Assembly (NCBI GenBank): GCA_963816085.1
Contig: CAWFIX010000003.1
Span: forward strand, 487,167-551,166
Reading direction: 5' to 3'
Source of the DNA: Candidatus Uhrbacteria bacterium
Lineage (GTDB): Bacteria; Patescibacteriota; Patescibacteriia; 2-12-FULL-60-25
Length of the DNA: 64,000 nucleotides
Both the position numbers and the translations under genes were made by a program. Shown here piece after piece: positions 12,565 to 51,097 of the stretch. The notes under the pieces are model-generated. The model worked only from the letters and a program-made list of their open reading frames with translations, was not told the origin of the DNA and searched no databases. Positions within the stretch are counted from its first letter, which is position 1; every line of letters starts with the position of its first letter.

Positions 12565-12565
12565 A

Positions 12566-13204: not shown

Positions 13205-13220
13205 ACGGTATTAAAAATTC

Positions 13221-26783: not shown

Positions 26784-26813
26784 GTTGTAATGATAGCATA
26801 GACAGTGTAGTAA

Positions 26814-31160: not shown

Positions 31161-31227
31161 AATTACCAATTACCAATTACCAATTAAGAATTAACAATTA
31201 CCAATTACCAATTACCAATTAAGAATT
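31161..31227. repeat. Heptad tandem repeat (AATTACC x3, AATTAAG, AATTAAC, AATTACC x3, AATTAAG)
   Basis: Nine near-perfect 7-nt units read directly. Confidence 0.9.
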
Positions 31228-31274
31228 ATTTATACTTATTTAACTGCCAAATACTATATACAAGATACTAGATA

Positions 31275-32528
31275 CTAATTTGTTTTTGGTGCCGGTGTTG
31301 TTCCGCTGTCTGAGTCGCTGGTGTTTACCGTACCAGCCGGTTGAGCAGAAGTGCCAGGTAGCGGGTTAGTCGTGGTGCCGGATCCTGAATTTTGCTGTTG
31401 TGGATTAGTGAGTAAATCTTGTTCCGCTTGTTTGGTTACCGCTTCCTGTTTTACCACACCCTCTTCTACGGTTTTTTGGGCGGCAAATGCTTGCTGGGTG
31501 CCAACCTTTATAAGTTGCACCGCTCCGTCGAGATCTTTATCGGCAACCATCTTATCGGCTTCGTTGAAAGATTTGGCCGCATCGCTAAGTTGCTCTTTTG
31601 GCGTACCTTCGCTACCTGTTTTTAAATCCGGAGTAGATGTGGAATTTGTTGCGGCAGTAGAAGTTGTGGTTGATTCGGTGGTTGTGGATTTGGTTGATGT
31701 GGTTACCTCAACTTTAAGACCGGTAGACTGGTTGATGGTTTTGGCGACTTTTTCATTGTGAGTTTTTAACACAATGATTACCTCTTGCTCGGTTACAACT
31801 TCAGCATCTTCTTCGTGAGTTTTTATCAAAAGCTCTAAAGCTTTTACAGATGTATCTGATGCGGCGGCTTGAGCTTCTGAGACTTTGACTATTTCCGTTG
31901 CGGAAAGCTTGGATTTTGATTCTTGCAGATCGGCCATTACGGATGTTGTTTTTTCATCTACGATGCGAGCCGCTTCTTTTGCTTTTGCCGGGGATGCCGT
32001 ATTTTGCACTTCGTCCAATTGATTCTTAATTGTATCCATGTCGCGTTTTAAAACCTCCGCCGCCTGCATGACACGCTCGGATTTATCGGCCAGAGGGCTA
32101 TCGATCACTTGTTTCATTTCTGTGACTCGGCGCTCCGTAAATTCAGTTTTGAGTTTGACGCGATCTTCGGGGGCTTTAATCATGGCTATGCGAGCCTGCT
32201 CGGTTACGAGTTTAATACTGTAGAGAAGATCACCCGGCAAGGCACGTTCTGCGGCGGAGACAGAGAATAGCGAGCCACTAAAAAGAGCCACAATGATCGC
32301 AATGGCTATGGCTGCCGGAGCTCGCATCCATTTAAAGGATATGACCGGTACAAAAATCTTAAAGCTGCGGCTAATAGCTGTTTTGGTTTTAGCCGGGGCG
32401 GGTTGTGAGTTCTTAACTTGCATGAGCAGTGTTTGGCGCGTTTCGGCAACCCAAAGAGCATCAGGCTTCATCTGCTTGGCGGCAGACCTGATGTTTCTGG
32501 TTCTTTTGAATAAGTGATAACTGCTCAT
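31275..32528 (-). CDS. Membrane-anchored putative anti-sigma factor (DUF5667-like ectodomain, low-complexity tail)
   Basis: Single TM 'APAAIAIAIIVALFSGSLFSV', then 'LPGDLLYSIKLVTEQARIAM'. Four nt downstream of the ECF sigma gene. Ser/Thr-rich C-terminus. Confidence 0.65.
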   Translation of the reverse strand: MSSYHLFKRTRNIRSAAKQMKPDALWVAETRQTLLMQVKNSQPAPAKTKTAISRSFKIFVPVISFKWMRAPAAIAIAIIVALFSGSLFSVSAAERALPGDLLYSIKLVTEQARIAMIKAPEDRVKLKTEFTERRVTEMKQVIDSPLADKSERVMQAAEVLKRDMDTIKNQLDEVQNTASPAKAKEAARIVDEKTTSVMADLQESKSKLSATEIVKVSEAQAAASDTSVKALELLIKTHEEDAEVVTEQEVIIVLKTHNEKVAKTINQSTGLKVEVTTSTKSTTTESTTTSTAATNSTSTPDLKTGSEGTPKEQLSDAAKSFNEADKMVADKDLDGAVQLIKVGTQQAFAAQKTVEEGVVKQEAVTKQAEQDLLTNPQQQNSGSGTTTNPLPGTSAQPAGTVNTSDSDSGTTPAPKTN

Positions 32529-32532
32529 TGTA

Positions 32533-33084
32533 TTATTTTTGCTCCTTAAGAGCTTTCATGCCGCGATAGTAGATAATGCGGACGTTGCCGGGGGTTTTAT
32601 CTAGGATGCTGGCGATATCCGCGAAGCTTAGGTCATCTATTAGGCGGAGGGCTAAAACATCACGATAGGAATCTTTTAGCTTATCTAACTGCCCAAGGAT
32701 GAGGGAGAGCTCGGTACGAGCCTCCATGTAAGCACGCCCATGGCTGGCCTCGTGTATAGATGTAGACGTGTCATCCGCCTCAAATGTTACAACTTCCAAA
32801 GATTCCGTATCTTTACGGGTTCTATAAAAGTCTGCGATTTGGTTACGGGCTATTTGATATAGGTAAGCGCGGACGCTCTTAACTTTCTTTTGTGACTGTA
32901 AGTGTTGCCAAAATCTGGTAAAAGTCTCGGCCGTGATATCTTCCGCATCTTGTTTTCTGGGCAACTTTAAAATAACAAACCGGTAAATGGCTGTTACATA
33001 TTTATCATATATTTTCGCAAATGCCTCCGGATCCTGCTTGACCTGAACCCGATAGAGCAAGTAGCGATCTAGGAGTTCTGCCAT
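32533..33084 (-). CDS. ECF-type sigma-70 family RNA polymerase sigma factor
   Basis: Region 2 'YDKYVTAIYRFVILKL...DAEDITAETFTRFW'. Region 4 'RDVLALRLIDDLSFADIASILDKTPGNVRIIYYRGMKALKE'. Confidence 0.9.
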   Translation of the reverse strand: MAELLDRYLLYRVQVKQDPEAFAKIYDKYVTAIYRFVILKLPRKQDAEDITAETFTRFWQHLQSQKKVKSVRAYLYQIARNQIADFYRTRKDTESLEVVTFEADDTSTSIHEASHGRAYMEARTELSLILGQLDKLKDSYRDVLALRLIDDLSFADIASILDKTPGNVRIIYYRGMKALKEQK

Positions 33085-37347: not shown

Positions 37348-38829
37348 TTATGTAACTCCAAACAAATTATTCTCTTTTTGCAAACGCTTTTCGCGGATGT
37401 GATACATCTCGGCAGTGGCTAAAAGCAGACCAATAGGTAGCCAGAGATGAGATGTCCAGTAAGCCGTATTAAATAGTTGATATACGACGGCACCTGATGC
37501 TGATGCTGCGAGAAGATAACAAACAACGAGCGGTTTGCCGTGAAGATCTTTCATACGAATCCAGGCATATCTGGCGGACATGGCAAGTACAAGAAGATAA
37601 GCCAAGAGACCGAACCCGCCGACTTCGGCAATAAGTTTTTGGATAAAGCCATGAGCATCAAGCGGAGCGCCAAACTCGATTAGGAAAACTTGAGCGTTGC
37701 CAACTCGCCAGATAAAAGTTCCTGCGCCACTGCCGATAATTGGGTGCTCGGTAAAAGCCGTCCAGGCGATTTCGGTCAGCATCCAACGGGTGGTGTTGGA
37801 GTTTTCGGCTGTTGTTGAAAAACTAAATTGAACTTGATATAAGGCCAAGGGAATCATGATGATGCCGAGGCCGATTATTGCGCCGATATATTTTTTTATA
37901 AAAGGGCGCCAAATAGTTAGAAGCAAAAAACCGAGTTGAAAAGCAAAGACAATCCAGGCCGTGCGAGCAAAAGTAAGCAGAGCCGCTAAAATTTGTGCTG
38001 CGCTCAAAAATATCAAAACCGTTTGCATGCGATATTTTTTTGATAAAATCGCAAGAGCGATTGTTGCCGGTGCTGCAAACATTAAAAGTTCGGCAAGTAG
38101 ATTGTGATTATCGCCGATGGCATTGATTCCAAACATTGGAATTGGATGCGCGCGTCGCACGGCCCAAGCGTAGGGCTCGATATCTAAAAGAGAAACATAA
38201 GCGTTTAAAGCCGCGAGAGCCCCAACAAAAGCCAGCACTCCAAATACTGCGCGAAGGCGACGCTCGGAACGGATGAGGTTGGCGGGTAATGCGATAAATG
38301 CAACGTAACAAAAAATTACAGGACGCAATACAAATTTGCCAATCAAGACAGGATCCGGGCCGTAGGAGCTGAAGATTGTGATTAGATGAGCAACCGCCAG
38401 AGTTGCGTATGATTTCCAGACCGGCAGGATGGGTCGCCAGTTTACATCGTGGCGCTTAAACCAGAGCAAGATAACTTTAACAGCCCAAGCTGTGATGAGT
38501 GCCATCAAAACAACATCTCCTAAAAATATATCGATAGATCCACCAAAAGCACGTTCGCCAATGTTTAGCGCGCCGGTGTCGAGGGAGACGGTAAGGCCAA
38601 GAAAAAGAGATAAGAATATTGATAAGTAAAAAGTTGTGTAAGTTGCGCGGTAGGCGAAAACCAGGAGGATGATGGCGATGGTGATAGCGATTGGGCCAAA
38701 AGGAATTCCAAAAACCACAAGAATACTGCCAACAAAGAGTAACAAGAAAAGACCCCAGGATAATATTGGCCAACTTGAGGCTTTATTCTCCGGTTTTGTG
38801 TGCTTATGTGAAAGGTGTTTTTCCTCCAT
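37348..38829 (-). CDS. O-antigen ligase/polymerase-family membrane protein
   Basis: 493 aa, polytopic; 'LTFARTAWIVFAFQLGFLL' Wzy_C-like loop region. Confidence 0.7.
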   Translation of the reverse strand: MEEKHLSHKHTKPENKASSWPILSWGLFLLLFVGSILVVFGIPFGPIAITIAIILLVFAYRATYTTFYLSIFLSLFLGLTVSLDTGALNIGERAFGGSIDIFLGDVVLMALITAWAVKVILLWFKRHDVNWRPILPVWKSYATLAVAHLITIFSSYGPDPVLIGKFVLRPVIFCYVAFIALPANLIRSERRLRAVFGVLAFVGALAALNAYVSLLDIEPYAWAVRRAHPIPMFGINAIGDNHNLLAELLMFAAPATIALAILSKKYRMQTVLIFLSAAQILAALLTFARTAWIVFAFQLGFLLLTIWRPFIKKYIGAIIGLGIIMIPLALYQVQFSFSTTAENSNTTRWMLTEIAWTAFTEHPIIGSGAGTFIWRVGNAQVFLIEFGAPLDAHGFIQKLIAEVGGFGLLAYLLVLAMSARYAWIRMKDLHGKPLVVCYLLAASASGAVVYQLFNTAYWTSHLWLPIGLLLATAEMYHIREKRLQKENNLFGVT

Positions 38830-38847
38830 GAACTAGGTAGTCTATCA

Positions 38848-38924
38848 AGTTTAAAGTTTGTAAAGTTCATAAAGTTGGCTTTCTTGCATCTTTATGAACT
38901 TTAAACTTTATGAACTTTATGAAC
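38848..38924. repeat. Inverted repeat built from 7-9 nt units (AAAGTTn / CTTTATGAA)
   Basis: agtttaaagtttgtaaagttcataaagttgg / ctttatgaactttaaactttatgaactttatgaac. Confidence 0.85.
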
Positions 38925-39020
38925 TATATTATAGCATATGTGAGAATGGCAAAAAAGTGCGCAATCAAGGGAAATTTCACCCTTTGCTAGATGTGAAACG
39001 ATATTTTGCTCCGTCATCCC

Positions 39021-39049
39021 TTGACAAAAAGCGCATTTTAGTGATAAGA
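39021..39049 (+). promoter_or_regulatory. Sigma-70-like promoter upstream of the first GC-rich gene
   Basis: TTGACA, 17 nt, (TG)ATAAGA. A strong SD GGAGGAG precedes the ATG at 39144. Confidence 0.45.
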
Positions 39050-39143
39050 AGCACGTATCTGTGCACACTTTCGTGCACTGAAAACACGACCTTTCACAAC
39101 GCAATAGCGTGTTTCTAAGCCCTTTGGGAGGAGAAGAGGAAAA

Positions 39144-40997
39144 ATGAGAATTCGATCGATGTCCAGTGGGTTGGTTTTGGTATTTTTGTTCGGTGCGACC
39201 GCGGTGAACTGCGGCGGGATGAATGATCCCGGGCAGGAGCCGGTGCGGAGCAGTAAGGCAGCCCTGTGTGAAAACTCGGGGTACTGCACTTCCGAACAAT
39301 CAGCGATCAACGACACCTGCTACAACAACGCATCTCAGACAATCTTGACGTGTTGGAGGTGCTTGCGAGTCCCCGCGAACGAGATTCCGGGACTCGAACA
39401 AGCCTTCCCCGATTTCGACAACTGCGAACACCCCGATGCGGGTAGTGCAGGATCGGCTGGTTCGGCAGGCTCCGCAGGGAGCGCAGGATCAGCCGGAGTC
39501 GGAGGAGCCGATGCAGGTGTGGATGCCCTCGTTTGCAACGATGGCGATACACTCAACTGTTCGCCGAGCTGTCCAGCGGAGCACACCGGCACACAGACAT
39601 GCGCGAACAATGCATTCGGTTCTTGCGTCTGTGTCCCTTGGGGCTCAGATGCGGGCGCGGATGCAACCCCAGACGCCGAACCCGACGCAGAACCGGATGC
39701 TGCACCTGATGCGGAACCGGATGCTGAGGTGGATGCTGCACCTGATGCGGAACCAGACGCTGCGCCCGACGCAGAACCGGATGCGGGCGCGGATGCAACC
39801 CCAGACGCCGAACCCGACGCAGAACCGGATGCTGCACCTGATGCGGAACCGGATGCTGAGGTGGATGCGGGTGTGGATGCGCCACTCTGTCCTGAGACGA
39901 AGGGTGGCTACTGTTCGCCTCCTGGTGAATACGCCTGTAGCGATACCCTGCGATGCAGCTGTGTGCTGGATCTTTCAAAGGACGACGCCGGAGAGAACTA
40001 CCAGAGCATCTGGTCGGACCCAACGGCGACCGGCCTTTGGGCATGCTTGGGTGAATGCCAGTGGTCCAATCCATGCACAGAGGAATGCGCCACTTGCGTT
40101 GGCCCTGCACTGGGTGGCGTGTTGGGTGACACCGAGACATTCCAATGTCGGGGTGGATACTTGTTCCGGCCGGATATGGAATTGACCGGAGTGCCCACGT
40201 GCCCCGACACCGATGGTGGAACGGGTGGTGCGGGCGGATCAGCTGGTAGCGCGGGCTCCGCAGGGAGCGCGGGCGCGGCTGGAACGGCGGGATCAGCAGG
40301 AACCGCTGGCACTGGTGGAACTGGTGGTACGGGTGGCGCGGGCGGAAGCTCGGGCAGTGCCGGAACCGCTGGCACTGGTGGAACTGGAGGTACGGCAGGC
40401 ACCGGTGGATTCGCGGGCAACACACAAGTCGCCTGCGATGAGACCGAGGTCTATACGACCAGCTTGTCGGCAATCCCGGCAACAGGGTTGTACCTGGAGT
40501 ATCTCACTCCTTCCTACCCCGATCCGCTCCATGCGGCGTTCTACAACTGGACGGATTACGGGGACAACGGACCTGCTGGATACGGCGGATACTTCGATAC
40601 TGATTGGCAGATGCGATGTGTGACGGAATCGTCACAGCAATCGCCCATCATCTGCCCGCTCGAGGATACGGTCACGTATCTCCTCGAGGTCATGCCTAAG
40701 TTGGTCCTCACGGAAACGGCGGACCAGACCACCACTCCTCCGGGCTGCACCATCTACACGGACGACAGCGCCTTGTACTGGGGCAACGCTGTTGCGACGG
40801 AAGCAGAGAAGAGTGCACTCTTCTATCCCGGTACTTGGAGGCTCTGGTACAACGGCGTCATGCTCGAAGAGTATGTGGACGCCGCCGGTGCAACTCCTCC
40901 TCCGGGATCATACTTCGTCAAGATCTACAAAGATCCGGGTGACCCCGTTGGCACCACGACCTATCGTGTGAACATGGCAGTTCGCTGGGTCAAGTGA
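39144..40997 (+). CDS. Secreted Cys-rich, Gly/Ser/Ala- and Pro/Asp/Ala/Glu-repeat protein (possible lipoprotein), GC-rich foreign-looking gene
   Basis: Signal peptide 'MRIRSMSSGLVLVFLFGATAVNCGG'. (GSA)n, (PDAE)n and (GTGG/GSAG)n arrays and many Cys. Own terminator at 41023-41052. Confidence 0.8.
   Translation: MRIRSMSSGLVLVFLFGATAVNCGGMNDPGQEPVRSSKAALCENSGYCTSEQSAINDTCYNNASQTILTCWRCLRVPANEIPGLEQAFPDFDNCEHPDAGSAGSAGSAGSAGSAGSAGVGGADAGVDALVCNDGDTLNCSPSCPAEHTGTQTCANNAFGSCVCVPWGSDAGADATPDAEPDAEPDAAPDAEPDAEVDAAPDAEPDAAPDAEPDAGADATPDAEPDAEPDAAPDAEPDAEVDAGVDAPLCPETKGGYCSPPGEYACSDTLRCSCVLDLSKDDAGENYQSIWSDPTATGLWACLGECQWSNPCTEECATCVGPALGGVLGDTETFQCRGGYLFRPDMELTGVPTCPDTDGGTGGAGGSAGSAGSAGSAGAAGTAGSAGTAGTGGTGGTGGAGGSSGSAGTAGTGGTGGTAGTGGFAGNTQVACDETEVYTTSLSAIPATGLYLEYLTPSYPDPLHAAFYNWTDYGDNGPAGYGGYFDTDWQMRCVTESSQQSPIICPLEDTVTYLLEVMPKLVLTETADQTTTPPGCTIYTDDSALYWGNAVATEAEKSALFYPGTWRLWYNGVMLEEYVDAAGATPPPGSYFVKIYKDPGDPVGTTTYRVNMAVRWVK
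39648..39867 (+). repeat. 132-bp in-frame tandem duplication (second copy about 88 nt identical) within (PDAE)n coding repeats
   Basis: gatgcgggcgcggatgcaaccccagacgccgaacccgacgcagaaccggatgctgcacctgatgcggaaccggatgctgaggtggatgc occurs at 39648 and 39780. Confidence 0.9.
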
Positions 40998-41022
40998 TCC
41001 GGATCTGACTCCTACCTACCTT

Positions 41023-41052
41023 AACCGAGGCAATTCTTGCCTCGGTTTTTTC
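41023..41052 (+). terminator. Rho-independent terminator of the 39144 gene
   Basis: aaccgaggcaa-ttc-ttgcctcggtt followed by ttttttc. Confidence 0.85.
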
Positions 41053-41130
41053 ATACTCGAACCAGGGTTTACCAGGATTAAAAACTACAAATTTGCAGGA
41101 TTATTCCTTAATATTTTTAATAAACAATCC

Positions 41131-41230
41131 TCGTAGGGGCGTATCCTTGTGATCGCCCGCACCATGGCTACAGCTGATTAAGCTACGCCTTTGGCGACAG
41201 AACTGGCGAACACGAGGTATCACCCCTACG
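41131..41230 (+). mobile_element. REPIN type II (about 100 nt, TCGTAGGGG...CCCCTACGA ends)
   Basis: Near-identical over about 100 nt to the sequence embedded in RAYT-2 (48388-48490). Sits between the two GC-rich genes. Confidence 0.85.
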
Positions 41231-41233
41231 AAG

Positions 41234-41272
41234 ACAAAAAGAAAAACACCCTGAGTTCCTAGTTCAGGGTGT
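41234..41272 (-). terminator. Rho-independent terminator of the 41294 gene
   Basis: Minus strand acaccctga-actaggaac-tcagggtgt followed by ttttctttttg. Confidence 0.8.
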
Positions 41273-41293
41273 GTTAGAGGTTGAAAGAGCTGG

Positions 41294-43543
41294 TTAGTTG
41301 GTCAGCGAATTCTCCGAGATGTACCGATGGCAGGAATTCTGCGTCGGCACCTTGGAAAGGCTGACGGGGATTGGCGTGGAGGTGGATTGGCCGAAGCCGT
41401 ATCCACGAGCGCTGATGTTACTCAGCTCGTGGCAAGTTCCACCCCAGTAGGAGTTATCCCATTCGGTGGGGTTGCCCCACTCGAAGTAGAACTCGCGGGG
41501 GGCATAGTAACCAGTGAACGACTTCTCGAAGCATGAGCTGTTGTAGCTCATGGTGTGAGGCTGCCATTCGGGAGCCACTTCCCAAAGCGTGGGCTTCGGG
41601 TGGACATACTCAGACGGACCACATAGCGTGACGACCACAGTTGCAAACGGATCCTTGCCGTTGCAATTTTGGTCTTCACCGTCGCCCCAGATTTCAACAG
41701 CATTGGGGCGGACGCGCGGGTCAGAATCGAGGCAGTCACCCTCGGCAACCGTGTAGCCATCGCCATCAACATCACTTGAGGTGATGAGATGTGAAGGCTC
41801 TGCGATTACCTCGAGGTTGTACCAGCCGCCGCCATTGTCTTTGGCGTAAGGCGGTACAGTCCAGGTGACAATACCATTGCTCTCGACAAAACAGTAGGTA
41901 TTCATCTGATATACAGGTGAGCCGTACTGCTCTGTGGATGAGATCGCGGAGAACGACCAGAAATCGTTTGTGTTCGGGTCGTAATTCACGGGGTCGGTTG
42001 CTGCGTTCCACTCGAAGGCAGTTCCTTCTTTGATCTGAACACTGAACTTGGCCCAGTGCACAGCGTGAGTATTGTTGTACTCACCAAGGAAGTCGCCCCA
42101 TTCAACCGGATTCTGTGACTCGTGATCCACATCCTTTCCGAGGATGTAGTAATCGTGAGCCAATCCATCCGGGTGGCGGAGGAAGCAAGTCAGAGTCGCT
42201 TCGTTTGCCGGCTGTTGCGGAGGATCTGCGATGTAACCATCACAGTTTTCATCCACGTCATTTCCGGCCACTTCCGCGACTCCGGGGTTGATGTCGTATC
42301 GACTGTCGTTGCAGTCACTAGCCTGATCCGCATAGCTCGCGGGCTTTGAGCACGCTTGCGTGGTGACGCTGTCGACGCCGTAACCATCCTTGTCGGCGTC
42401 GCGGTAGAAGGTGGTTTTGACACCTTCGTCAATAACGCCGTCGCAGTTGTCATCATATCCATTACAGGTTTCGGTTGCATTGGGATGAACGTTGAAGTTT
42501 TGGTCGTTGCAATCGCCTTCGGCGACTGTGTAACCATCCTTGTCGATGTCATCAACAATCCCGCCACCCGAGCCACCAGTGCCAGAGGTGCCACCGGTTC
42601 CGGCAGTTCCTCCGCTTCCGGCAGTGCCGCCAGTACCCGATGTGCCACCAGTACCAGACGTTCCGCCCGATCCAGCAACTCCACCAGTTCCCGAGGTTCC
42701 ACCAGACCCGGCAACTCCGCCGGTTCCTGCAGTTCCACCCGTGCCCGAGCTTCCGCCCGTGCCTGAACTTCCACCGGTTCCGGATGCTCCTGCGGCACCA
42801 GCCGTGCCATTCCACTCGCAACTACAGACATGGCTCCAGTCATTATTGATACATTTTTCAGTACCAACGTAATCCGGATCACAGTCGCAACTACGAGATT
42901 CATCGCTTTGGCAGGTTTCGATGAGATAGCAGTTACACATTTCGGACAATTGTCCGTTGATGCACTCTTGCGTTCCATTGAAACCGGAGCCGCAGCGATA
43001 GGAGCAGTCGACAACGGCAGTACAAGAATTGCTTGTTCCACCGGTGCCCGACGTACCACCGGAACCAGATGCTCCACCTGACCCAGATGTTCCGCCCGTG
43101 CCTGCAGTTCCACCGGTTCCGGATGTGCCACCCGTGCCCGAGCTTCCGCCCGTGCCAGATGTTCCACCGGTTCCTGCGGATCCACCTGTACCAGCTGTTC
43201 CACCGGAGCCAGAAGCTCCTGCGGATCCACCGGTGCCTTGGGAATCGGGGCACTTGCACCCCTCAGCCCATGTATTATCGGGCTGGCAGAGCAATTTTCC
43301 GTCGTTGCTATCAGGGCAGTCGCACCACTTCCACGCACCTATTGGTGCGCAATGGTTGGGATCGACCGCAGCTCCAGCGGCACCGGCTTCGCCGGATTCG
43401 CCAGCAGAGCCGGCCGAGCCGGACCCTCCTGCTGCCCCTGCCGCCGAAAGCGGTTGGGGGGAGGTAGTGTCTTCGATGCAACCCGTACCAAATACTCCAA
43501 ATACAAACAAGATACAAGAAACAAACAATTTCCGGCTATACAT
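41294..43543 (-). CDS. Secreted Cys-rich protein with (GTGGxS)n arrays and three Asp/Cys 'putative metal-binding' (MopE-like) motifs; possible lipoprotein; GC-rich
   Basis: Start at 43543 with SD AAGGAG 7 nt upstream. 'MYSRKLFVSCILFVFGVFGTGC'. Motifs 'DKDGYTVAEGDCNDQNFNVHPNATETCNGYDDNCDG', 'DADKDGYG...DCNDSRYDINPG...DENCDG' and 'DVDGDGYTVAEGDCLDSDPRVRPNAVE...DQNCNG'. Confidence 0.8.
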   Translation of the reverse strand: MYSRKLFVSCILFVFGVFGTGCIEDTTSPQPLSAAGAAGGSGSAGSAGESGEAGAAGAAVDPNHCAPIGAWKWCDCPDSNDGKLLCQPDNTWAEGCKCPDSQGTGGSAGASGSGGTAGTGGSAGTGGTSGTGGSSGTGGTSGTGGTAGTGGTSGSGGASGSGGTSGTGGTSNSCTAVVDCSYRCGSGFNGTQECINGQLSEMCNCYLIETCQSDESRSCDCDPDYVGTEKCINNDWSHVCSCEWNGTAGAAGASGTGGSSGTGGSSGTGGTAGTGGVAGSGGTSGTGGVAGSGGTSGTGGTSGTGGTAGSGGTAGTGGTSGTGGSGGGIVDDIDKDGYTVAEGDCNDQNFNVHPNATETCNGYDDNCDGVIDEGVKTTFYRDADKDGYGVDSVTTQACSKPASYADQASDCNDSRYDINPGVAEVAGNDVDENCDGYIADPPQQPANEATLTCFLRHPDGLAHDYYILGKDVDHESQNPVEWGDFLGEYNNTHAVHWAKFSVQIKEGTAFEWNAATDPVNYDPNTNDFWSFSAISSTEQYGSPVYQMNTYCFVESNGIVTWTVPPYAKDNGGGWYNLEVIAEPSHLITSSDVDGDGYTVAEGDCLDSDPRVRPNAVEIWGDGEDQNCNGKDPFATVVVTLCGPSEYVHPKPTLWEVAPEWQPHTMSYNSSCFEKSFTGYYAPREFYFEWGNPTEWDNSYWGGTCHELSNISARGYGFGQSTSTPIPVSLSKVPTQNSCHRYISENSLTN

Positions 43544-43675
43544 GATTTTCTCCTTGTCTTTAGTCCATAATCCTGGATACATAAATCCTGGCGTTGAATT
43601 AGCTGGGATTGTGTACGGAGGAAATGGACGTTTTTCGAGGTTCGATGGGCGTTCTCCTCCATTGGAAAACATATA

Positions 43676-43704
43676 AATATAGCATAAAAATGCCATTTTG
43701 TCAA
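43676..43704 (-). promoter_or_regulatory. Sigma-70-like promoter of the 41294..43543 gene
   Basis: Minus strand TTGACA (43704-43699), 17 nt, TATATT (43681-43676). Confidence 0.5.
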
Positions 43705-43810
43705 TGGTAGCTGGACAGAGTTTTTGTCTATAGTCAAATAAAATTAGAAATATCTTAATTAACGGCTTAACAAAGCTAAAAATATTATACGTGTGGATTG
43801 ATAGGAACTA

Positions 43811-43839
43811 TTGACAACTTAGCCAAATACTGTTACAGT
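43811..43839 (+). promoter_or_regulatory. Sigma-70-like promoter with extended -10 for an orphan plus-strand transcript
   Basis: TTGACA (43811-16), 17-nt spacer ending TGt, TACAGT (43834-39). Confidence 0.5.
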
Positions 43840-44232
43840 CCAAATGTCCTAATCGACAAGCGCGCTTATAGAGACAGGACGCAGAACCCCCTCACTCCAA
43901 GCAATTAAGGAGAAGGAAATGCGTACCAACATACTGAATCATGGTGAATATTATCGTGTAACACAGGGACTGTGAGCTCCAAGAGTCCACGCTGTACACC
44001 TTGTGTATATATTAGGAAATAGCGCCATGAATACGAAGCGCACTATCGATCGAAATCGATCGAATGGAATCGGACCTTCAGACTCAAAAAGGCTATATAC
44101 TCCCAGTGAGCTACAGCCACACATGCACTGCCCGTTTGGTGGTTAGGTTGGGGCCTCTGAGCCCAGTAATACCTTTTCGTTTTATACCACCATAGTGTTA
44201 GGCTCCCATACAGAGCCTTGATCTGCGAGACG

Positions 44233-44264
44233 GAAAAAATTAAAACACGACTTACAGCCGTGTT
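44233..44264 (-). terminator. Rho-independent terminator for the TrmB-like gene
   Basis: Minus strand aacacg-gctgtaagt-cgtgtt followed by ttaatttttt. Confidence 0.7.
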
Positions 44265-44275
44265 CCCTAAGCGAA

Positions 44276-44306
44276 AGCGCCAACCTACTCAGGCGCTCTT
44301 TTTTAT
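44276..44306 (+). terminator. Rho-independent terminator of the orphan plus-strand unit
   Basis: agcgcc-aacctactca-ggcgct followed by cttttttatttt. Confidence 0.75.
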
Positions 44307-44307
44307 T

Positions 44308-45063
44308 TTACGGATTTAATTGCGCCCCTCTCCAGATGAGCTCGAACATGGCACGCAACATATCGCGAGTTTCTTTATTTTCGAATAAAAATACAACCGG
44401 CTTGGCTTTAGGTAAGATTATCGCCACTTTTTCATCGAATAAAGTCATCTCCCCTGTAAACTGATATTGTTCGTATGGTATGAATTTTACCTGCCAATTT
44501 TCTTTATTATAGATTGGTAATTTTAAACCCGGCTTTAATGCAACAAGTACACGGCCGCGTAACTGCCTAGTTAAAAGCATCCTTTGTGTTTCATCTATCT
44601 TAGACATTTTTTCGATCTCCTCATCAAGTGCGGAAATGGTTAATATCTCTCCCCTGGTTTGCAAATAGATTTCACGAACCGTACGCAAGCCCTCCTCACC
44701 CTCAAAAAATCTGACATTTGGTTTATCTTCTGAGGCAGAATTATATAGTGCCAAAAATGATGGCAATGCTTCTTTAAGCCTGTCTTCCTTTTCTTGGATC
44801 AGACGGACATCTTTTTCAATGAGACGTTTTAAGCGTTCGGGAGACTCGGCAACAAACATCGTTTTCTTGCCTTTATCAAAAGTCGACATCAAGCCGCGGC
44901 GTTTTAGCGACTCAATCATGACATATGTTGTTGCGCGATTTACACCGGATTTTTTGGCAATATCTTGCACGCTGGCCGGGCCAAGCTCGAGCATGGACAG
45001 GTAGACAAGGGATTCTTTGTCCGAGAGGCCATATTCGGCCAAGCATTCATTTAAGTCTTTCAT
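44308..45063 (-). CDS. TrmB-family transcriptional regulator
   Basis: N-terminal wHTH 'YGLSDKESLVYLSMLELGPASVQDIAKKSGVNRATTYVMIESLKRRGLMS'. Confidence 0.85.
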   Translation of the reverse strand: MKDLNECLAEYGLSDKESLVYLSMLELGPASVQDIAKKSGVNRATTYVMIESLKRRGLMSTFDKGKKTMFVAESPERLKRLIEKDVRLIQEKEDRLKEALPSFLALYNSASEDKPNVRFFEGEEGLRTVREIYLQTRGEILTISALDEEIEKMSKIDETQRMLLTRQLRGRVLVALKPGLKLPIYNKENWQVKFIPYEQYQFTGEMTLFDEKVAIILPKAKPVVFLFENKETRDMLRAMFELIWRGAQLNP

Positions 45064-45070: not shown

Positions 45071-45137
45071 TACGTCAAAAGTCGAATGTCTAACGTCGAA
45101 CGCATTTCGGACATTTGACGTTTGACGTTTGACGAGG
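45071..45137. repeat. Mismatched inverted repeat of heptads (ACGTCnn / nnGACGT)
   Basis: acgtcaa/aagtcga/atgtcta/acgtcga - loop - ggacatt/tgacgtt/tgacgtt/tgacgag. Confidence 0.9.
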
Positions 45138-46276: not shown

Positions 46277-46305
46277 GTCAACATTATAACATATTACAAA
46301 CCTGA

Positions 46306-46387
46306 GGTCATAACGTCGTAACGTCGTAACGTACAAACCACCTCCAACTCCGTTACGACATTAAGACGTTATGACTTTACGACTTTC
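46306..46387. repeat. Mismatched inverted repeat of 8-nt units (GTCGTAAC / CGTTAnGA)
   Basis: gtcataacgtcgtaacgtcgtaacgtaca...ccgttacgacattaagacgttatgactttacgac. Confidence 0.9.
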
Positions 46388-46412: not shown

Positions 46413-46910
46413 ATGGGTTATTACATAATTATCCGCGGGCCGCTGGGTTGCGGAAAAACGACGATAGCAAAAGCACTGGCCGCGAGGTTAAGCGCTGAGT
46501 ATTTATCTGTGGATGAGATTTTAGATGAAAATAAACTTGAAGATAATATGGGGGATGGATTTATCTCACAGGAAAGTTTTAAGAAGGCTGATAATTACTT
46601 ATCGGAAAAAGCTAAAGAGTTTTTGGATAAAAAAATACCGGTTGTTATTGATGGTAATTTTTATTGGAAATCGCAAATTGATGATTTAGCGGAAAAGCTC
46701 ATTTATCCGCATGCGATATTTACCTTGGATGCGCCGCTTGAGGTTTGTATCGAAAGAGACGCTAAGCGCGAGAATCCACTTGGCGAAGATGCGACCAGAG
46801 TAATATACGAAAAAACCACCTCAGTTGAGGCGGGCAAAAAAATTGATGCCACAAAAGACACCGAAGTGGTGATTACTGAGATTATTGATGTGTTATTGAT
46901 GAAGTCTTAA
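46413..46910 (+). CDS. P-loop NTPase / small kinase-like ATP-binding protein
   Basis: Walker A 'IRGPLGCGKTTIAKALA'; 165 aa. Bracketed by two homologous repeat hairpins. Confidence 0.7.
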   Translation: MGYYIIIRGPLGCGKTTIAKALAARLSAEYLSVDEILDENKLEDNMGDGFISQESFKKADNYLSEKAKEFLDKKIPVVIDGNFYWKSQIDDLAEKLIYPHAIFTLDAPLEVCIERDAKRENPLGEDATRVIYEKTTSVEAGKKIDATKDTEVVITEIIDVLLMKS

Positions 46911-46984
46911 AGTCTTAACGTCATAACGTCCTAATGTACAAAAAAACACCCCGTTAAGACGTTACGACTTTATGACGTTAAGAC
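46903..46984. repeat. Mismatched inverted repeat of 8-nt units between convergent genes
   Basis: aagtcttaaagtcttaacgtcataacgtcctaatgtaca...ccgttaagacgttacgactttatgacgttaagact. The loop and arms are homologous to 46306-46387. Confidence 0.9.
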
Positions 46985-46995
46985 TATAGAGTTGT

Positions 46996-48128: not shown

Positions 48129-48788
48129 CTATTTTAATTCCTTATTATTTTCATCCTTATCCCACTGCATCGGATTGTAGCTTATATACTCCGAGATTTT
48201 CTCATAATCTTCTTCATCACGGATAACATGCTCATAATAGTTTCTTTGCCAAAGCTTTCCTTGGAAAGGCTTCCATGAATTCTTTTTAACGTTCTTAATA
48301 TACTCAACTGAAGTTCTTGATTTAAAAGCCTGCACGATTCTTCCAAGCGTGTCTTGTTTTGTACCGCTATGTCTACTTGTTTCAACTCGTAGGGGCGTAT
48401 CCTTGTGATCGCCCTCACTAAGGCTACAGCTAATCAAGTTACGCCTTTGGCGACAGAACGGGCGAACACTATGTTCGCGCCCTACGATCGAAAACTGGCG
48501 AATGCTAGGCATCGTCCCTACGCGGTCATTTTGAATTTCGATAATCCCGTGAATGTGATTTGGCATTACGATAAATTCATCCAGAATAATTTGAGGAAAT
48601 TGTTTTTCTAGATTCCGCCATTCGGCATAAAGCATGCAACCGGCATGATTTAATATTATCTTGTGATTTTGAATTTTGCCAAAATAATTTTCGGAGTCAT
48701 TTGTGCAGATAGTGATAAAATAAGAGCCGGAATCGGCGTAATCAAAACCAGGGATACGAATTGATTGTCGGTTTGGCAATTTATTCAT
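48129..48788 (-). CDS. HUH/Y1 transposase-like protein (RAYT type), copy 2, with an approximately 100-nt REPIN read through in frame
   Basis: 'GSYFITICT' and 'MPNHIHGII'. Conserved C-terminal region GRIVQAFKSRTSVEYIK, no catalytic Tyr assigned. The central 'VGREHSVRPFCRQRRNLISCSLSEGDHKDTPLRVE' is coded by REP DNA. Confidence 0.85.
   Translation of the reverse strand: MNKLPNRQSIRIPGFDYADSGSYFITICTNDSENYFGKIQNHKIILNHAGCMLYAEWRNLEKQFPQIILDEFIVMPNHIHGIIEIQNDRVGTMPSIRQFSIVGREHSVRPFCRQRRNLISCSLSEGDHKDTPLRVETSRHSGTKQDTLGRIVQAFKSRTSVEYIKNVKKNSWKPFQGKLWQRNYYEHVIRDEEDYEKISEYISYNPMQWDKDENNKELK
48388..48533. mobile_element. REPIN type II copy embedded inside the RAYT-2 ORF
   Basis: tcgtaggggcgtatccttgtgatcgccctcactaaggctacagctaatcaagttacgcctttggcgacagaacgggcgaacactatgttcgcgccctacga, aligning with 41131-41230. 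Confidence 0.85.
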
Positions 48789-48826: not shown

Positions 48827-48896
48827 CGAAGGCGAACACCACAAGGTCGTCTGGTTTATTAGGTGCGGGCGATCACAAGGATGCGCCCCTACGAGA
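48827..48896 (-). mobile_element. REPIN type II-related element, right flank of RAYT-2 (inverted)
   Basis: The reverse complement starts ctcgtaggggcgcatccttgtgatcgcccgcacc. Confidence 0.75.
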
Positions 48897-48898: not shown

Positions 48899-51097
48899 TT
48901 ATTGCAATTTCACGGTAAACACTTGATCGTACAGCGACCCGGCCTGCGCTTCGTAGTTTGTGTCGCCCCATTTTTCCTCGGGCTCGGGTGGCTCGGCGGT
49001 GGCGATACTTTGTGGGAAGAGAATTTTAACGTTGAGTTCTGCGTTATCGACACCGGGTTGTTTGGGCCAATCGAGGCGATAGGTGCCATCTAAAATTGAT
49101 GCGACGGACGATTTGGGGAGCTCGTAGGTGAAAGCAAGTTTACCTGTTTTGCCAGGTTCGATAGCCCAGAATGCACCGAACACGGTTTTGCCAAGTTCTT
49201 TCATGACGTCGACGGTACCCGGAGCAAAACGACCGCCGGTTTGAGTGAGGTCGCCTGCCATGGCGCCGGTAGATGAGATGAGTTGGCTACCCTCGGGAAC
49301 ATAGACGCGAGTGTAACTGCGGTAACGAGTGTAACGCCAAGTGATTTGCCTGTTTGTGTTTTGATACGTGAAGGTGACGTTGGCTTTCGGATGCTCGAGA
49401 TCGCGTGCATCAAGAGTATATTGAATTGATTTTGACATCACGCCATCCGTTTTTAGTGCTGCGAGATTGGCATCGATTATCCAAAGAAAGTCTCCATCTG
49501 TTGGTTTAGTTCTACCACTCCAATTGCGAGCGTCTACAACAGATTGAATCTTGGGATTGCGATTGTAGATGAGGATTTGTTTTTGATCGAGTGCTGTGGT
49601 GATGATGCTGATAATTTTTGGCCATTCGGACCTTGGTAGAGCTTGGATTTTAGCCAGAATCTCATCCCCTACTTTGCCCATTAAATCTTTGCGATTTTCT
49701 TGAGTGATATCGGGCGCGACTTCGACTTCGTATTGAAGCACATCCATGAAGTTTGAAGTATTAAATGTTTTACCTTCCACGATGACCGGGCCGGTGAAAG
49801 CTAGGAGGGATTCGAAAAATCCCGGTTCCAAGGCGATAAAACCATCTTGATGCGGTGCGGGCTTGCCAAGTGGGACCGCGCGCTCACGTTCGTAGAAATC
49901 CAGAATCCTCTCGGCGGAAGTTGGGAAATCGGGCGACCAGTTAGCATCGCGCATAAACCATTTGGTAACACCGAGATTTTTTTGGATGGGTGCGGGCGGT
50001 ACTTCGCTCCAAACTCCTGAGGCTGGATTATCGATGTCGTAAATATCAAAAAATTCGTATGATTCGATATTGCCCGCATCCAGCTCCGCTGTGACGATAC
50101 TTCCGATAAAACCTCCAGCCGGGCGAATCTCGTCGGCATTTTGAGTTGCTATCACATAATTTTGTGGATCCGGATAGCCAAGCAAAGGAATGAATACTTC
50201 GATTAAAGGGACTCCTTGTTCGAGAGATTGTTGCAAAATTGGCAAGTAAACAGTCATTGGCTCGAGCGCGTCGCGGATTGGGCCGGCGAGTTGATCTTTG
50301 GGCAAATCGTTCCACATGGCAAGAGCGATATCGATTTTATCACGAGCAAGGCGGATCTCGGGTAAAGATCTGTAAAGTGATTCCAACAATGCCAAACGCT
50401 CTTCCTTGGTTAGATCTTGCAGGCGCTCGGAAGCATCGACATCCACCTGGGTCGCACCGGTTGTTTTTGTGGCAAGGAACATTGCTTCTTGCAATGCGCC
50501 GGCAACATTTAAAATATCTTGTACGCCATCTAATGTTTGTGAGCTGACTTGAGCAGTATCTTGTAATCCACGGATTTGAGTACCAAGGTAAGGCATATCG
50601 CGCCAAAAGCCAACGCCGTTTAGATAGCTCTGCATGGCATCAAACTGTTCTTGCGCTGTGCCGGCTTCGGATTTAGCGGAATCGAACTCGCCTGCCTCCA
50701 GCATGTTTTGCATGCTCTCGAGCGAGAGTTTAGCTTGATAGCCAGACCAACCGGCACGACCCAAGGCGATAAGCGGCGGGATAAAGAAAATTCCCAAAAT
50801 AATTACTACCGCAAGAATTGCATATCTGAGTTTACGGTTTTTCTTAACTTTTCCTCGTCCCACGTCGCTCGTCCCACGTCCTACGTCGGCTGCGTTGCGT
50901 TCAATATCATCATCCGGGCGGAGAGGAATGAAGGGTTTACCTACGTCAACGCGTCCCACGTCGCTCGTCCCACGTCCCGCGTCAGCAACACCAATAACGT
51001 TATTGGGTACAACTTCGGAAACTGAAGAATCCAGCTCGTGGGGAGGCGGTAGTGAGGGGACGCTTGGGCAAGTTAGAAAATTCGGTGATTGCACCAT
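48899..51097 (-). CDS. DUF4012-like membrane-anchored protein
   Basis: N-terminal TM 'YAILAVVIILGIFFIPPLIAL'. 'NYVIATQNADEIRPAGGFIGSIVTAEL' matches the DUF4012 core as I recall it. The N-terminal tail carries heptad-coded 'GRGTSDVGR' repeats. Confidence 0.7.
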   Translation of the reverse strand: MVQSPNFLTCPSVPSLPPPHELDSSVSEVVPNNVIGVADAGRGTSDVGRVDVGKPFIPLRPDDDIERNAADVGRGTSDVGRGKVKKNRKLRYAILAVVIILGIFFIPPLIALGRAGWSGYQAKLSLESMQNMLEAGEFDSAKSEAGTAQEQFDAMQSYLNGVGFWRDMPYLGTQIRGLQDTAQVSSQTLDGVQDILNVAGALQEAMFLATKTTGATQVDVDASERLQDLTKEERLALLESLYRSLPEIRLARDKIDIALAMWNDLPKDQLAGPIRDALEPMTVYLPILQQSLEQGVPLIEVFIPLLGYPDPQNYVIATQNADEIRPAGGFIGSIVTAELDAGNIESYEFFDIYDIDNPASGVWSEVPPAPIQKNLGVTKWFMRDANWSPDFPTSAERILDFYERERAVPLGKPAPHQDGFIALEPGFFESLLAFTGPVIVEGKTFNTSNFMDVLQYEVEVAPDITQENRKDLMGKVGDEILAKIQALPRSEWPKIISIITTALDQKQILIYNRNPKIQSVVDARNWSGRTKPTDGDFLWIIDANLAALKTDGVMSKSIQYTLDARDLEHPKANVTFTYQNTNRQITWRYTRYRSYTRVYVPEGSQLISSTGAMAGDLTQTGGRFAPGTVDVMKELGKTVFGAFWAIEPGKTGKLAFTYELPKSSVASILDGTYRLDWPKQPGVDNAELNVKILFPQSIATAEPPEPEEKWGDTNYEAQAGSLYDQVFTVKLQ
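50855..50986. repeat. Two heptad tracts (CGTCCCA/CGTCGCT units) inside the DUF4012 ORF
   Basis: tcgtcccacgtcgctcgtcccacgtcctacgtcgg and cctacgtcaacgcgtcccacgtcgctcgtcccacgtcccgcgtcagc. Same family as 58514-58550. Confidence 0.85.

What the first reader, a model, noticed from the sequence alone, without database searches (positions are those of the whole stretch)
39021..43704. GC-rich island: two convergent genes for Cys-rich, Gly-repeat secreted proteins with myxobacteria-style motifs, fully wired with host-type signals
Spot counts of single 60-nt lines give about 65% G+C at 39661, about 48% at 1021 and 27-30% at 5281 and 9961, so the compositional jump is obvious. Both proteins have signal peptides ending in Cys (possible lipoboxes 'AVNC' and 'GTGC'), long (GSAG/GTGGxS)n arrays and many Cys. 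The second has three copies of the Asp/Cys motif D-x-D-x-D-G-Y...C-(N/D)-D...P-x-A-x-E...(D/N)-x-(D/N)-C-(D/N)-G at about 42437-42550, 42236-42400 and 41657-41773. As I recall, this is the 'putative metal-binding (MopE-like) motif' abundant in Myxococcota secreted proteins. The island nevertheless has AT-rich sigma-70-like promoters, strong SD sites, AT-richer signal-peptide codons, two canonical terminators and a host REPIN (41131-41230) between the genes. That argues for real integration rather than a chimeric contig. Horizontally acquired surface or adhesion proteins in an episymbiont-type genome would be biologically interesting.
Basis: partly seen in the sequence, partly recalled or inferred. 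Interest (0 to 1): 0.7.

Follow-up and report, generated by a model that had tools for sequence, protein, structure and literature searches.

The report
Conserved Patescibacteria surface-lipoprotein gene pair
The GC-rich "island" is real, but it is an old, vertically inherited pair of genes for cysteine-rich, glycine-linker surface lipoproteins found at the same spot in related Patescibacteria. Most of its high G+C comes from the proteins' amino-acid make-up, not from recent gene transfer.

Summary
There are two convergent genes, A (39144-40997, +) and B (41294-43543, -), at 56-61% G+C in a 44% window. Both have signal peptides ending in Cys, Gly-rich arrays and 29-34 Cys. B has three PF11617 (MopE-type) motifs (E=2.6e-24). 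Host-type promoters, two terminators and a REP doublet are present.

The transfer reading is not supported. The same pair sits between TrmB-GT4-MreB and Wzy_C in five other Patescibacteria assemblies, and B with an A-position gene sits beside a fragmented TrmB/GT4 in a sixth. Flank G+C in these loci ranges from 41 to 60%. The pair is always 6-18 points richer than its own flanks. Its identity hierarchy follows the flanks, and its promoters are conserved.

Amino-acid composition plus host codon usage predicts about 60-65% of the jump. The rest is a third-position G+C excess in the non-repeat domains. It recurs in relatives and remains unexplained.

Best reading: strongly promoted, membrane-anchored surface proteins built as disulfide-knot beads on Gly-rich linkers, with distal beta-sandwich heads. 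They are probably adhesion or envelope proteins. Function is inferred, not shown.

This is a new member of a known kind, of modest interest.

The parts
37348..38829 (-). Flanking Wzy_C (O-antigen-ligase-like) membrane protein; conserved left neighbour of the pair
   Evidence: Pfam PF04932 E=4.4e-10. Orthologue lies next to A in L001, L002, L003, L083 and L084.
39019..39055 (+). Promoter of A: TTGACA (39021-39026), 18-nt spacer containing TG, then TAAGAA; followed by a 5' UTR of about 85 nt and a GGAGG SD
   Evidence: Block CTTGACAAAA..TTTTA..G.TAAG is invariant in W, L003, L002 and L001. Sequence read. Not picked up by the consensus scan.
39144..40997 (+). Gene A, 617 aa. Order: signal peptide + Cys23 (AVNC), Cys-rich N-domain, (GSA)n linker, 6-Cys module, (PDAE)n acidic linker, Cys-rich domain, 23-triplet Gly linker, C-terminal beta-sandwich
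   Evidence: No Pfam family.
39639..39878 (+). (P-D-A-E)n acidic array, 12-nt period; replaced largely by (GSA)17 in relative L003
   Evidence: (D2).
40218..40424 (+). Gly-X-Y array of A, 23 uninterrupted triplets
   Evidence: (D3).
40422..40994 (+). C-terminal 191-aa domain of A: all-beta sandwich, lineage-restricted
   Evidence: AF2 pLDDT 86.3, pTM 0.84. No PDB fold match with E<0.02. Only 13 representatives among 1.84 billion proteins.
41023..41047 (+). Intrinsic terminator of A
   Evidence: 11-bp stem plus T-run; -17.1 kcal/mol, z -6.3.
41130..41231 (.). REP doublet (REPIN-like) between the two genes
   Evidence: Second copy at 48386-48487 (86% identity). Single arms at 26480-26506 and 48868-48894; 4 hits against 0 expected. 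Folds at -50.2 kcal/mol. Present at the same place in L003.
41233..41272 (-). Intrinsic terminator of B (9-bp stem, 9-nt loop, T-run)
   Evidence: Missed because the loop is longer than 8 nt.
41294..43543 (-). Gene B, 749 aa. Order: signal peptide + Cys22 (GTGC), three 6-Cys modules separated by Gly-X-Y arrays of 8, 23 and 28 triplets, two PF11617 motifs, beta-sandwich 1, invariant PF11617 motif, beta-sandwich 2
41297..42226 (-). Conserved C-terminal 310-aa unit of the B family (sandwich - motif - sandwich)
   Evidence: Alignment A3 has invariant residues D152, D154, D156, G157, D164, C165, D185 and C188. AF2 pLDDT 68.8 with two beta domains.
41654..41773 (-). PF11617 motif 3 (aa 591-630); the copy conserved in all B orthologues; matches the N-terminus of MopE* (PDB 2VOV)
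42233..42547 (-). PF11617 motifs 1 and 2 (aa 333-437); copy number varies among orthologues
42557..43237 (-). Two long Gly-X-Y arrays of B (42557-42808 and 43031-43237) flanking two 6-Cys modules
   Evidence: (D1).
43676..43704 (-). Promoter of B: TTGACA-17-TATATT with extended-10 TG; 5' UTR of about 125 nt; AAGGAG SD
   Evidence: 11 of 12 matches. Conserved in L002 and L001.
44308..45063 (-). Flanking TrmB-family regulator; conserved right neighbour
   Evidence: Pfam PF01978 E=1.3e-14. Synteny shown.

Best explanation
A and B are an ancestral, vertically inherited pair of cell-surface lipoproteins of an Uhrbacteria/Magasanikbacteria-like Patescibacteria lineage. They form a fixed part of a conserved envelope locus: GT2-GT2-DUF4012-MreB-GT4-TrmB-[B]-[A]-Wzy_C-GT4-GT4-ECF sigma-DUF5667-1270-aa protein.

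Each gene is transcribed from its own strong, conserved sigma-70-type promoter. Each protein is exported, and the Cys that ends its signal peptide is probably lipid-modified to anchor it in the membrane.

Each protein is a string of small six-Cys (disulfide-knot) modules separated by flexible Gly/Ser/Thr/Ala linkers. These hold one (A) or two (B) distal beta-sandwich domains away from the cell. In B, PF11617 D-x-D-x-D-G/Cys motifs act as small, probably Ca2+- and disulfide-stabilised connectors. The likely role is adhesion or envelope organisation for an episymbiotic cell.

The compositional 'island' is mainly a by-product of Gly (GGN), Ala (GCN), Pro, Thr and Cys-rich protein sequence, which explains about 60-65% of the jump. 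A gene-specific third-position G+C excess of unknown cause accounts for the rest.

Shown: anatomy, conservation, synteny, the composition breakdown and the folds. Inferred: lipidation, surface location, Ca2+ binding and adhesion.
For: Synteny and vertical descent:
- The pair sits between TrmB and Wzy_C in L001, L002, L003, L083 and L084. In L085, B and an A-position gene lie next to fragmented TrmB/GT4 genes, without Wzy_C.
- Named relatives are all 'Patescibacteria group bacterium'. MreB neighbours are named Uhrbacteria or Magasanikbacteria.
- Identity hierarchy for B and A: W-L003 92% and 63%; W-L002 72% and 53%. More distant pairs give 29-45% over partial alignments, or for A no significant match with L083 and L085. 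This matches the hierarchy of MreB, GT4, Wzy and DUF4012.
- dN/dS is 0.13-0.15, so both genes are under purifying selection.
- Promoters are conserved across genomes of 41-59% G+C.

Composition:
- Pair G+C against flanks is 0.61/0.56 vs 0.46 in W, 0.52/0.50 vs 0.41 in L002, 0.67/0.65 vs 0.59 in L001 and 0.69/0.66 vs 0.60 in L085.
- Expected G+C from amino-acid content and host codon usage is 0.549 and 0.516.

Protein anatomy:
- All 13 complete orthologues have a hydrophobic signal region followed by a small residue and Cys. Examples: AAAGC, IVAGC, LAVGC, LAAGC, TLVGC.
- The six-Cys module occurs once in A and three times in B, against 0 in shuffles.
- AF2 models are beta-sandwiches.
- PF11617 is present, with one copy invariant across the family.
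- Ca2+ stabilises MopE* (PMC3423442).
Against: - No experiment or expression data exist. Lipidation enzymes cannot be checked in this window.
- The lipoboxes of W are non-canonical: Asn at -1 in A and Gly at -3 in B.
- GC3 of the pair in W (0.61/0.57 vs 0.46) is not explained by amino-acid content. It is also not the codon preference of rplJ/rplL, which have GC3 0.36 and prefer A/T at 4-fold sites. Some extra process therefore acts on these genes.
- The fold searches gave only weak C2/PLAT-like or no matches, so no ligand can be named.
- In L083 and L085 the A-position gene has a different C-terminal domain.
Confidence: 0.75

Rival explanations
1. Recent horizontal acquisition of a GC-rich island by this genome, for example from Myxococcota.
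For: There is a G+C jump of 12-17 points. PF11617 and Cys-rich/Gly-rich secreted proteins are common in Myxococcota and Desulfobacterota hits. GC3 is above every other gene in the window.
Against: The pair is present at the same locus in five relatives, and partly in a sixth, with congruent divergence. Its G+C follows each host. Promoters and the REP doublet are shared with L003. Matches outside Patescibacteria cover only the 40-aa motif. There is no tRNA, integrase or border repeat.
Confidence: 0.04
2. Vertical locus, but with recurrent allele exchange or recombination among related Patescibacteria (including GC-richer ones), or GC-biased gene conversion in a recombination-prone surface-protein locus. 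This would produce the synonymous G+C excess. It is compatible with the best explanation.
For: The GC3 excess recurs: W +0.13, L003 +0.13, L084 +0.15, L083 +0.28, L002 +0.05, and none in GC-rich L001 and L085. Both G and C are enriched at 4-fold sites in the non-repeat domains. The pair evolves faster than its flanks. Linkers are swapped between W and L003.
Against: No incongruent identity pattern was seen among seven loci. Windowed synonymous divergence between W and L003 in B (0.38-0.72) is only slightly below the flanks (0.42-0.76). No population data are available.
Confidence: 0.3
3. The Gly arrays are collagen-like triple helices, so A and B are trimeric stalked fibres like BclA or Scl.
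For: Strict G-X-Y runs of 23-28 triplets in W. Pfam Collagen matches above its cut-off in the A orthologues of L003 and L002, at 40.5 and 31.2 bits against 27.2. PDB collagen chains are matched.
Against: The arrays contain no Pro and no charged pairs. W's own proteins do not reach the Pfam Collagen model. The G-X-Y phase is absent in L084 and short in L083. The phase also follows trivially from 9- and 18-nt tandem units.
Confidence: 0.1
4. B is a copper-handling protein like MopE.
For: PF11617 is named Cu-binding_MopE. MopE* (2VOV) is matched at E=4e-8.
Against: The confident match covers only MopE* residues 5-64. The copper site is Kyn130/His132/His203 (PMC3423442), outside the motif. The W/H positions near the C-terminus of B are not conserved in the family.
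Confidence: 0.05
5. Assembly chimera joining a GC-rich foreign fragment into the contig.
For: Only the composition change.
Against: The same gene order and junction sequences occur in independent assemblies. A host REP element lies inside the region.
Confidence: 0.01

Closest known systems
PF11617 'putative metal-binding motif' proteins, type MopE* of Methylococcus capsulatus (PDB 2VOV)
   Same: B has three copies above Pfam's threshold. Its third copy plus the following strand aligns with MopE* residues 5-64. Both are secreted or surface proteins.
   Different: The rest of B is unrelated by sequence. The MopE* copper site (Kyn130/His132/His203, PMC3423442) is not covered. B also has Gly-rich linkers, six-Cys modules and a lipoprotein-type signal.
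Myxococcota/Desulfobacterota secreted proteins with tandem PF11617 and Cys-rich repeats (e.g. DUF4215, 'cysteine-rich repeat', MYXO-CTERM proteins)
   Same: Shared motif, Cys richness and Gly/Ser/Thr low-complexity linkers. They appear as weak hits.
   Different: Similarity is limited to the motif and to composition. The beta-sandwich domains of A and B match only proteins that are unnamed or named Patescibacteria.
Bacterial collagen-like surface proteins (BclA, Scl1/Scl2; PF01391)
   Same: Long uninterrupted G-X-Y arrays between a membrane-proximal end and a distal globular domain. Array length varies between relatives.
   Different: No Pro or charged residues in the arrays. The Pfam model is not reached in W. 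The triplet phase is not conserved across the family.
S-layer/surface glycoprotein genes placed next to their glycosylation cluster (Geobacillus sgsE-slg with Wzy_C-type WsaB; Neisseria PglL substrates) - recalled from memory
   Same: Surface-protein genes adjoin a Wzy_C gene and several GT2/GT4 glycosyltransferases. The linkers are rich in Ser, Thr and Ala.
   Different: Glycosylation is untested. The Wzy_C protein has no solved relative by sequence. S-layer proteins are normally Cys-poor.
REP/REPIN elements with RAYT (IS200-like Y1 transposase) genes
   Same: A 102-nt inverted doublet, dispersed copies, and two Y1_Tnp-like ORFs carrying or adjoining REP arms.
   Different: The Y1_Tnp matches cover only the C-terminal half of the domain, so these may be remnants. 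The family itself was not compared with published REPINs.

Membership tests
PF11617 (Cu-binding_MopE motif) proteins | HMM match above Pfam's gathering score | tested here: met
   85.6 bits against 27, E=2.6e-24, 3 stretches in B; none in A.
PF11617 (Cu-binding_MopE motif) proteins | MopE*-type copper site (Trp/Kyn130, His132, His203) | tested here: inconclusive
   The confident alignment to 2VOV stops at residue 64. The site lies outside the motif (PMC3423442). Candidate W/H residues are not conserved.
Bacterial lipoproteins (Lgt/LspA substrates) | Signal peptide ending in a lipobox [LVI][ASTVI][GAS]-C | tested here: inconclusive
   W has AVN-C (A) and GTG-C (B), both non-canonical. Orthologues have canonical AAG-C, VAG-C, AVG-C, LVG-C and AAG-C. 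The Cys is conserved in all 13 complete proteins.
Bacterial lipoproteins (Lgt/LspA substrates) | lgt and lspA present in the genome; N-terminal Cys acylated | not testable with these tools
   These genes are not in the 64-kb window, and there are no proteomic data.
Horizontally acquired genomic island | Absent from or patchy in close relatives; phylogeny incongruent with the flanks | tested here: not met
   Present at the same locus in L001, L002, L003, L083 and L084, and partly in L085. The identity hierarchy is congruent with the flanks.
Horizontally acquired genomic island | Composition atypical after allowing for the encoded protein | tested here: inconclusive
   Amino-acid content explains 60-65% of the jump. 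The GC3 excess of +0.11 to +0.15 remains and recurs in relatives.
Horizontally acquired genomic island | Mobility signatures at the borders (tRNA, integrase, direct repeats) | tested here: not met
   No tRNA in the window. No border repeats or integrase. The REP doublet is internal and of host type.
Collagen-like triple-helix proteins (PF01391) | Uninterrupted G-X-Y repeats | tested here: met
   23 triplets in A; 23 and 28 in B.
Collagen-like triple-helix proteins (PF01391) | HMM match above threshold, and Pro or charged residues to stabilise the helix | tested here: not met
   No Pfam Collagen hit for W's A or B at E<=0.1. X and Y positions are T, S, A and G only. The phase is lost in L084.
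REPIN/RAYT system | Inverted REP doublet, dispersed copies, associated Y1 transposase | tested here: met
   The Y1_Tnp matches are partial (profile positions 61-121).
Protein O-glycosylation substrate of a Wzy_C-type oligosaccharyltransferase | Glycan on Ser/Thr of the linkers; neighbouring Wzy_C protein is an O-OTase rather than a ligase or polymerase | not testable with these tools
   Only adjacency to Wzy_C and GT genes is shown. No PDB relative by sequence.

The most novel reading that the evidence does not exclude
A and B are the major, strongly expressed host-contact fibres of this Patescibacteria lineage. In this reading, membrane-anchored stalks of disulfide knots and G-X-Y linkers (possibly triple-helical) are O-glycosylated by the adjacent Wzy_C/GT cluster and carry fast-evolving, previously undescribed beta-sandwich heads. 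Their recurrent synonymous G+C excess would mark a recombination and gene-conversion hotspot driven by diversifying selection at the symbiont-host interface.
Probability: 0.12. Interest if true: 0.6.

Novelty: new member of a known kind. Interest (0 to 1): 0.3.

Why it matters
It removes a false lead: a striking G+C jump in a small-genome bacterium here reflects protein composition, not gene transfer.

It also defines a conserved pair of uncharacterised, strongly promoted surface proteins in a fixed envelope locus of an uncultured lineage. The pair includes a confidently modelled domain with no solved relative. These are reasonable candidates for the cell-cell contact proteins that episymbiotic Patescibacteria must have.

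The leftover third-position G+C excess, repeated across relatives, is a small but testable puzzle about recombination or selection at surface-protein genes.

Tried and rejected
- Rfam found nothing: the whole window at gathering thresholds and 43544-44310 at E<=1. There are no tRNAs.
- Pfam and NCBIfam on A gave only composition-level hits (MSCRAMM SD-repeats, SclB) far below their cut-offs.
- The search for related loci with the 10-sequence alignment failed for lack of a conserved stretch. It worked with 3 close sequences, but 79 of 80 loci were motif-only hits.
- Foldseek against PDB for the B C-terminal unit gave only weak C2/PLAT-type sandwiches with TM about 0.15-0.2. For the A domain nothing scored below E=0.02.
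- The Wzy_C protein has no PDB relative by sequence.
- A and B C-terminal domains are not similar to each other.
- Translational selection as the cause of the high GC3 was rejected as a full explanation. rplJ/rplL and the 1272-aa protein prefer A/T at 4-fold sites.
- Recent W-L003 recombination in B is not evident from windowed synonymous divergence.
- Literature searches for PF11617, or for cysteine-rich or S-layer proteins in Patescibacteria/CPR, found no description of this family.
Full report
**Observation**

The window averages 0.44 G+C. The 1-kb windows at 39-41 kb reach 0.58-0.61, and those at 41-44 kb reach 0.51-0.55.

Two convergent ORFs fill the region. A is 39144-40997 (+), 617 aa. 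B is on the minus strand, 749 aa, taken as 41294-43543 from MYSRK. That start has an AAGGAG SD. The alternative start at 43696 lies upstream of B's own -10 box.

Both proteins begin with a hydrophobic signal region ending in Cys (AVNC, GTGC). They contain 29 and 34 Cys and are 13.6% and 17.4% Gly. Tandem arrays with periods of 9, 18, 36 and 54 nt encode the Gly-rich stretches, and a 12-nt array encodes (PDAE)n in A.

PF11617 (Cu-binding_MopE) matches B at E=2.6e-24 in three stretches, at the stated coordinates.

The expression signals are also real:
- B has a near-consensus promoter, TTGACA-17-TATATT with TG.
- Both genes have hairpin-plus-T-run terminators.
- The 102-nt inverted doublet at 41130-41231 has a second copy at 48386-48487.
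- The doublet's arm occurs four times in the window against none expected. Two IS200/RAYT-like ORFs lie next to the other copies.

**Is it a transferred island?**

The best database hits to B and A were P0001 and P0091. Both lie on contigs with the same gene order as the window: Wzy_C, A, convergent B, TrmB, GT4, MreB, DUF4012, GT2.

A scan of species-representative genomes found L003, labelled 'Patescibacteria group bacterium C14-29'. It is about 80% identical in DNA across the flanks. It has the same pair and the same REP doublet between the genes. Two further NCBI Patescibacteria assemblies (L083, L084) share the full arrangement. A 1.08-Mb contig (L085) shares it only in part: B and an A-position gene lie beside fragmented GT4/TrmB genes, without Wzy_C.

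Pairwise identities of A and B follow the same order as MreB, GT4, Wzy and DUF4012. W is closest to L003, then to L002, then to the rest. The promoters of both genes are conserved at the nucleotide level in genomes whose flanks range from 41 to 59% G+C.

Between W and L003, dN/dS is 0.13-0.15 for the pair and 0.02-0.07 for the flanks. The pair therefore evolves faster but is still constrained. No tRNA, integrase or border repeat marks the region.

Outside this lineage, matches to B cover only the 40-aa motif. They fall mostly in Myxococcota and Desulfobacterota MAGs.

The pair is ancestral to the lineage and was not acquired by this genome. An ancient origin of the motif elsewhere cannot be tested here.

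**Why is it GC-rich?**

In all seven loci the pair is richer in G+C than its own flanks:

| Locus | A | B | Flanks |
|---|---|---|---|
| W | 0.61 | 0.56 | 0.46 |
| L003 | 0.61 | 0.59 | 0.47 |
| L002 | 0.52 | 0.50 | 0.41 |
| L001 | 0.67 | 0.65 | 0.59 |
| L083 | 0.66 | 0.64 | 0.48 |
| L084 | 0.64 | 0.61 | 0.48 |
| L085 | 0.69 | 0.66 | 0.60 |

First and second codon positions carry most of the effect. In W, giving each amino acid the host's own codon frequencies predicts 0.549 for A and 0.516 for B. That is about 60-65% of the jump.

The remainder is a third-position excess, 0.61 and 0.57 against 0.46 in the flanks. It lies in the non-repeat domains (GC3 0.64), not in the Gly arrays (0.44).

The excess recurs in the mid-GC relatives: +0.13 in L003, +0.15 in L084 and +0.28 in L083. 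It is small in L002 and absent in the GC-rich L001 and L085.

It is not the local high-expression signature. The window's rplJ and rplL have GC3 0.36 and prefer A/T at four-fold sites, as does the 1272-aa neighbour protein. The pair is instead enriched in both G and C at those sites.

Synonymous divergence between W and L003 is near or above saturation, with dS about 1-1.8. A fading foreign signal would therefore need to be renewed. I could not resolve the cause. Candidates are biased gene conversion in a recombining surface-protein locus, allele exchange with GC-richer relatives, or nucleotide-level selection. Windowed synonymous divergence gives no clear sign of recent exchange.

**What the proteins are**

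All 13 complete orthologues keep a Cys directly after the hydrophobic signal region, with G, A, S or N before it. Several have canonical lipoboxes such as AAAGC, IVAGC and LAVGC. Membrane anchoring as lipoproteins is therefore the most likely reading, but it is inferred.

A six-Cys module, C-x(4-10)-C-x(0-3)-C-x(7-11)-C-x(6-11)-C-x-C, occurs once in A and three times in B. Shuffled sequences give none, and the module recurs in orthologues. The modules are separated by Gly/Ser/Thr/Ala linkers whose length and even type differ between W and L003. The (PDAE)n array of W is largely a (GSA)17 array in L003.

The conserved core of the B family is its last 310 residues. AlphaFold (pLDDT 68.8) models two beta-sandwiches joined by the one PF11617 copy that is invariant across the family. 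The N-terminal copies vary from 0 to 4. Foldseek finds only weak C2/PLAT-like resemblance.

The last 191 residues of A model confidently (pLDDT 86.3, pTM 0.84) as a beta-sandwich with no significant PDB match. Only 13 representatives exist among 1.84 billion proteins. In L083 and L085 the A-position gene carries a different C-terminal domain.

The architecture is anchor, then beads-and-linkers stalk, then distal sandwich heads. Together with strong conserved promoters and a position inside a glycan/envelope locus, it fits surface adhesion or envelope proteins. The ligand is unknown.

**Comparison with known families**

B qualifies as a PF11617-containing protein. The match to MopE* (2VOV, E=4e-8) confidently covers only residues 5-64, which is the motif and one strand. 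The MopE* copper site is Kyn130/His132/His203, and Ca2+ stabilises that protein (PMC3423442). Copper binding should therefore not be inferred. A Ca2+- and disulfide-stabilised connector is more plausible, but that is inference.

The Gly arrays of W keep strict G-X-Y phase for 23-28 triplets, and orthologues of A pass Pfam's Collagen threshold. Against a collagen helix:
- the arrays lack Pro and charged residues;
- W's own proteins do not reach the Collagen model;
- the phase is lost in L084;
- the phase follows directly from the 9- and 18-nt repeat units.

I rate a collagen-like helix at about 0.1.

Adjacency to Wzy_C and many glycosyltransferases suggests, from memory of PglL/WsaB systems, that the linkers might be O-glycosylated. 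This is untested.

**Verdict**

The feature is a lineage-specific, conserved pair of surface lipoprotein genes, a new member of a known kind. It carries a modest unexplained synonymous G+C excess. No description of the family was found in the searchable literature.

Noticed in passing
window 44028-44147 (+); equivalents L003 6384-6551 (-), L002 14454-14639 (+), L001 9396-9572 (-): Unannotated conserved small ORF (33-46 aa) between B and TrmB. In W it reads MNTKRTIDRNRSNGIGPSDSKRLYTPSELQPHMHCPFGG. The C-terminal motif ELQPxxHC is kept in four genomes. All four W-L002 differences within the ELQPHMHCP codons are synonymous, which argues for a protein. No Rfam match.
   Followed up: partly
window 43811-43966 (+): A divergent promoter (TTGACA-17-TACAGT with TG) is conserved in L002. 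It is followed by a conserved leader with a strong SD and an 18-aa ORF (MRTNILNHGEYYRVTQGL), upstream of the small ORF above. A +strand hairpin with T-run at about 44276-44305 could end this transcript of about 450 nt.
   Followed up: partly
window 26196-26858 (-) and 48129-48788 (-): Two ORFs of about 220 aa with partial IS200/Y1 transposase (RAYT-like) matches. REP arms of the same family as the 41130-41231 doublet lie inside or beside them (26480-26506, 48386-48487, 48868-48894), so the ORFs may be remnants or over-extended.
   Followed up: partly
window 38838-38926: Imperfect 40-nt inverted repeat made of TTTATGAAC/AAAGTT units, between the Wzy_C start and the A promoter. It is conserved in L003 and could be an operator site.
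   Followed up: no
window 5000-13500: A low-GC block (0.31-0.37 against 0.44; genes with GC3 0.29-0.39). It may be a better candidate for foreign or variable DNA than the reported island.
   Followed up: no
window 77-115, 520-578, 31161-31242, 45103-45133, 46294-46384, 46899-46993, 50855-50986, 55026-55058, 58515-58550: Many intergenic (and some genic) short tandem arrays of 7-8-nt units (GACGTTn, CGTTAAGA/CGTTATGA, AATTACC), often in inverted pairs flanking genes such as 46413-46910.
   Followed up: no
window 27019-33084 (-): A conserved trio sits next to the locus: ECF sigma factor (32533-33084), DUF5667 protein (31275-32528) and a 1272-aa protein with no Pfam family. The last has codon usage like rplJ/rplL (A/T at 4-fold sites, GGT for Gly), so it may be an abundant envelope protein.
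   Followed up: partly
window 39639-39878 vs L003 A aa 170-220: The acidic (PDAE)n linker of A in the window is replaced by a (GSA)17 linker in the 80%-identical relative. Linkers are swapped wholesale while the flanking Cys domains stay aligned.
   Followed up: partly
L084 10209-10442: In one relative a small GIY-YIG nuclease gene lies between the convergent A and B genes, where the window has the REP doublet. The inter-gene spacer seems to be a landing site for selfish elements.
   Followed up: no
window 23694-26081 (-): A second Wzy_C-domain protein, fused to TPR repeats (795 aa), lies 11 kb upstream of the first.
   Followed up: no
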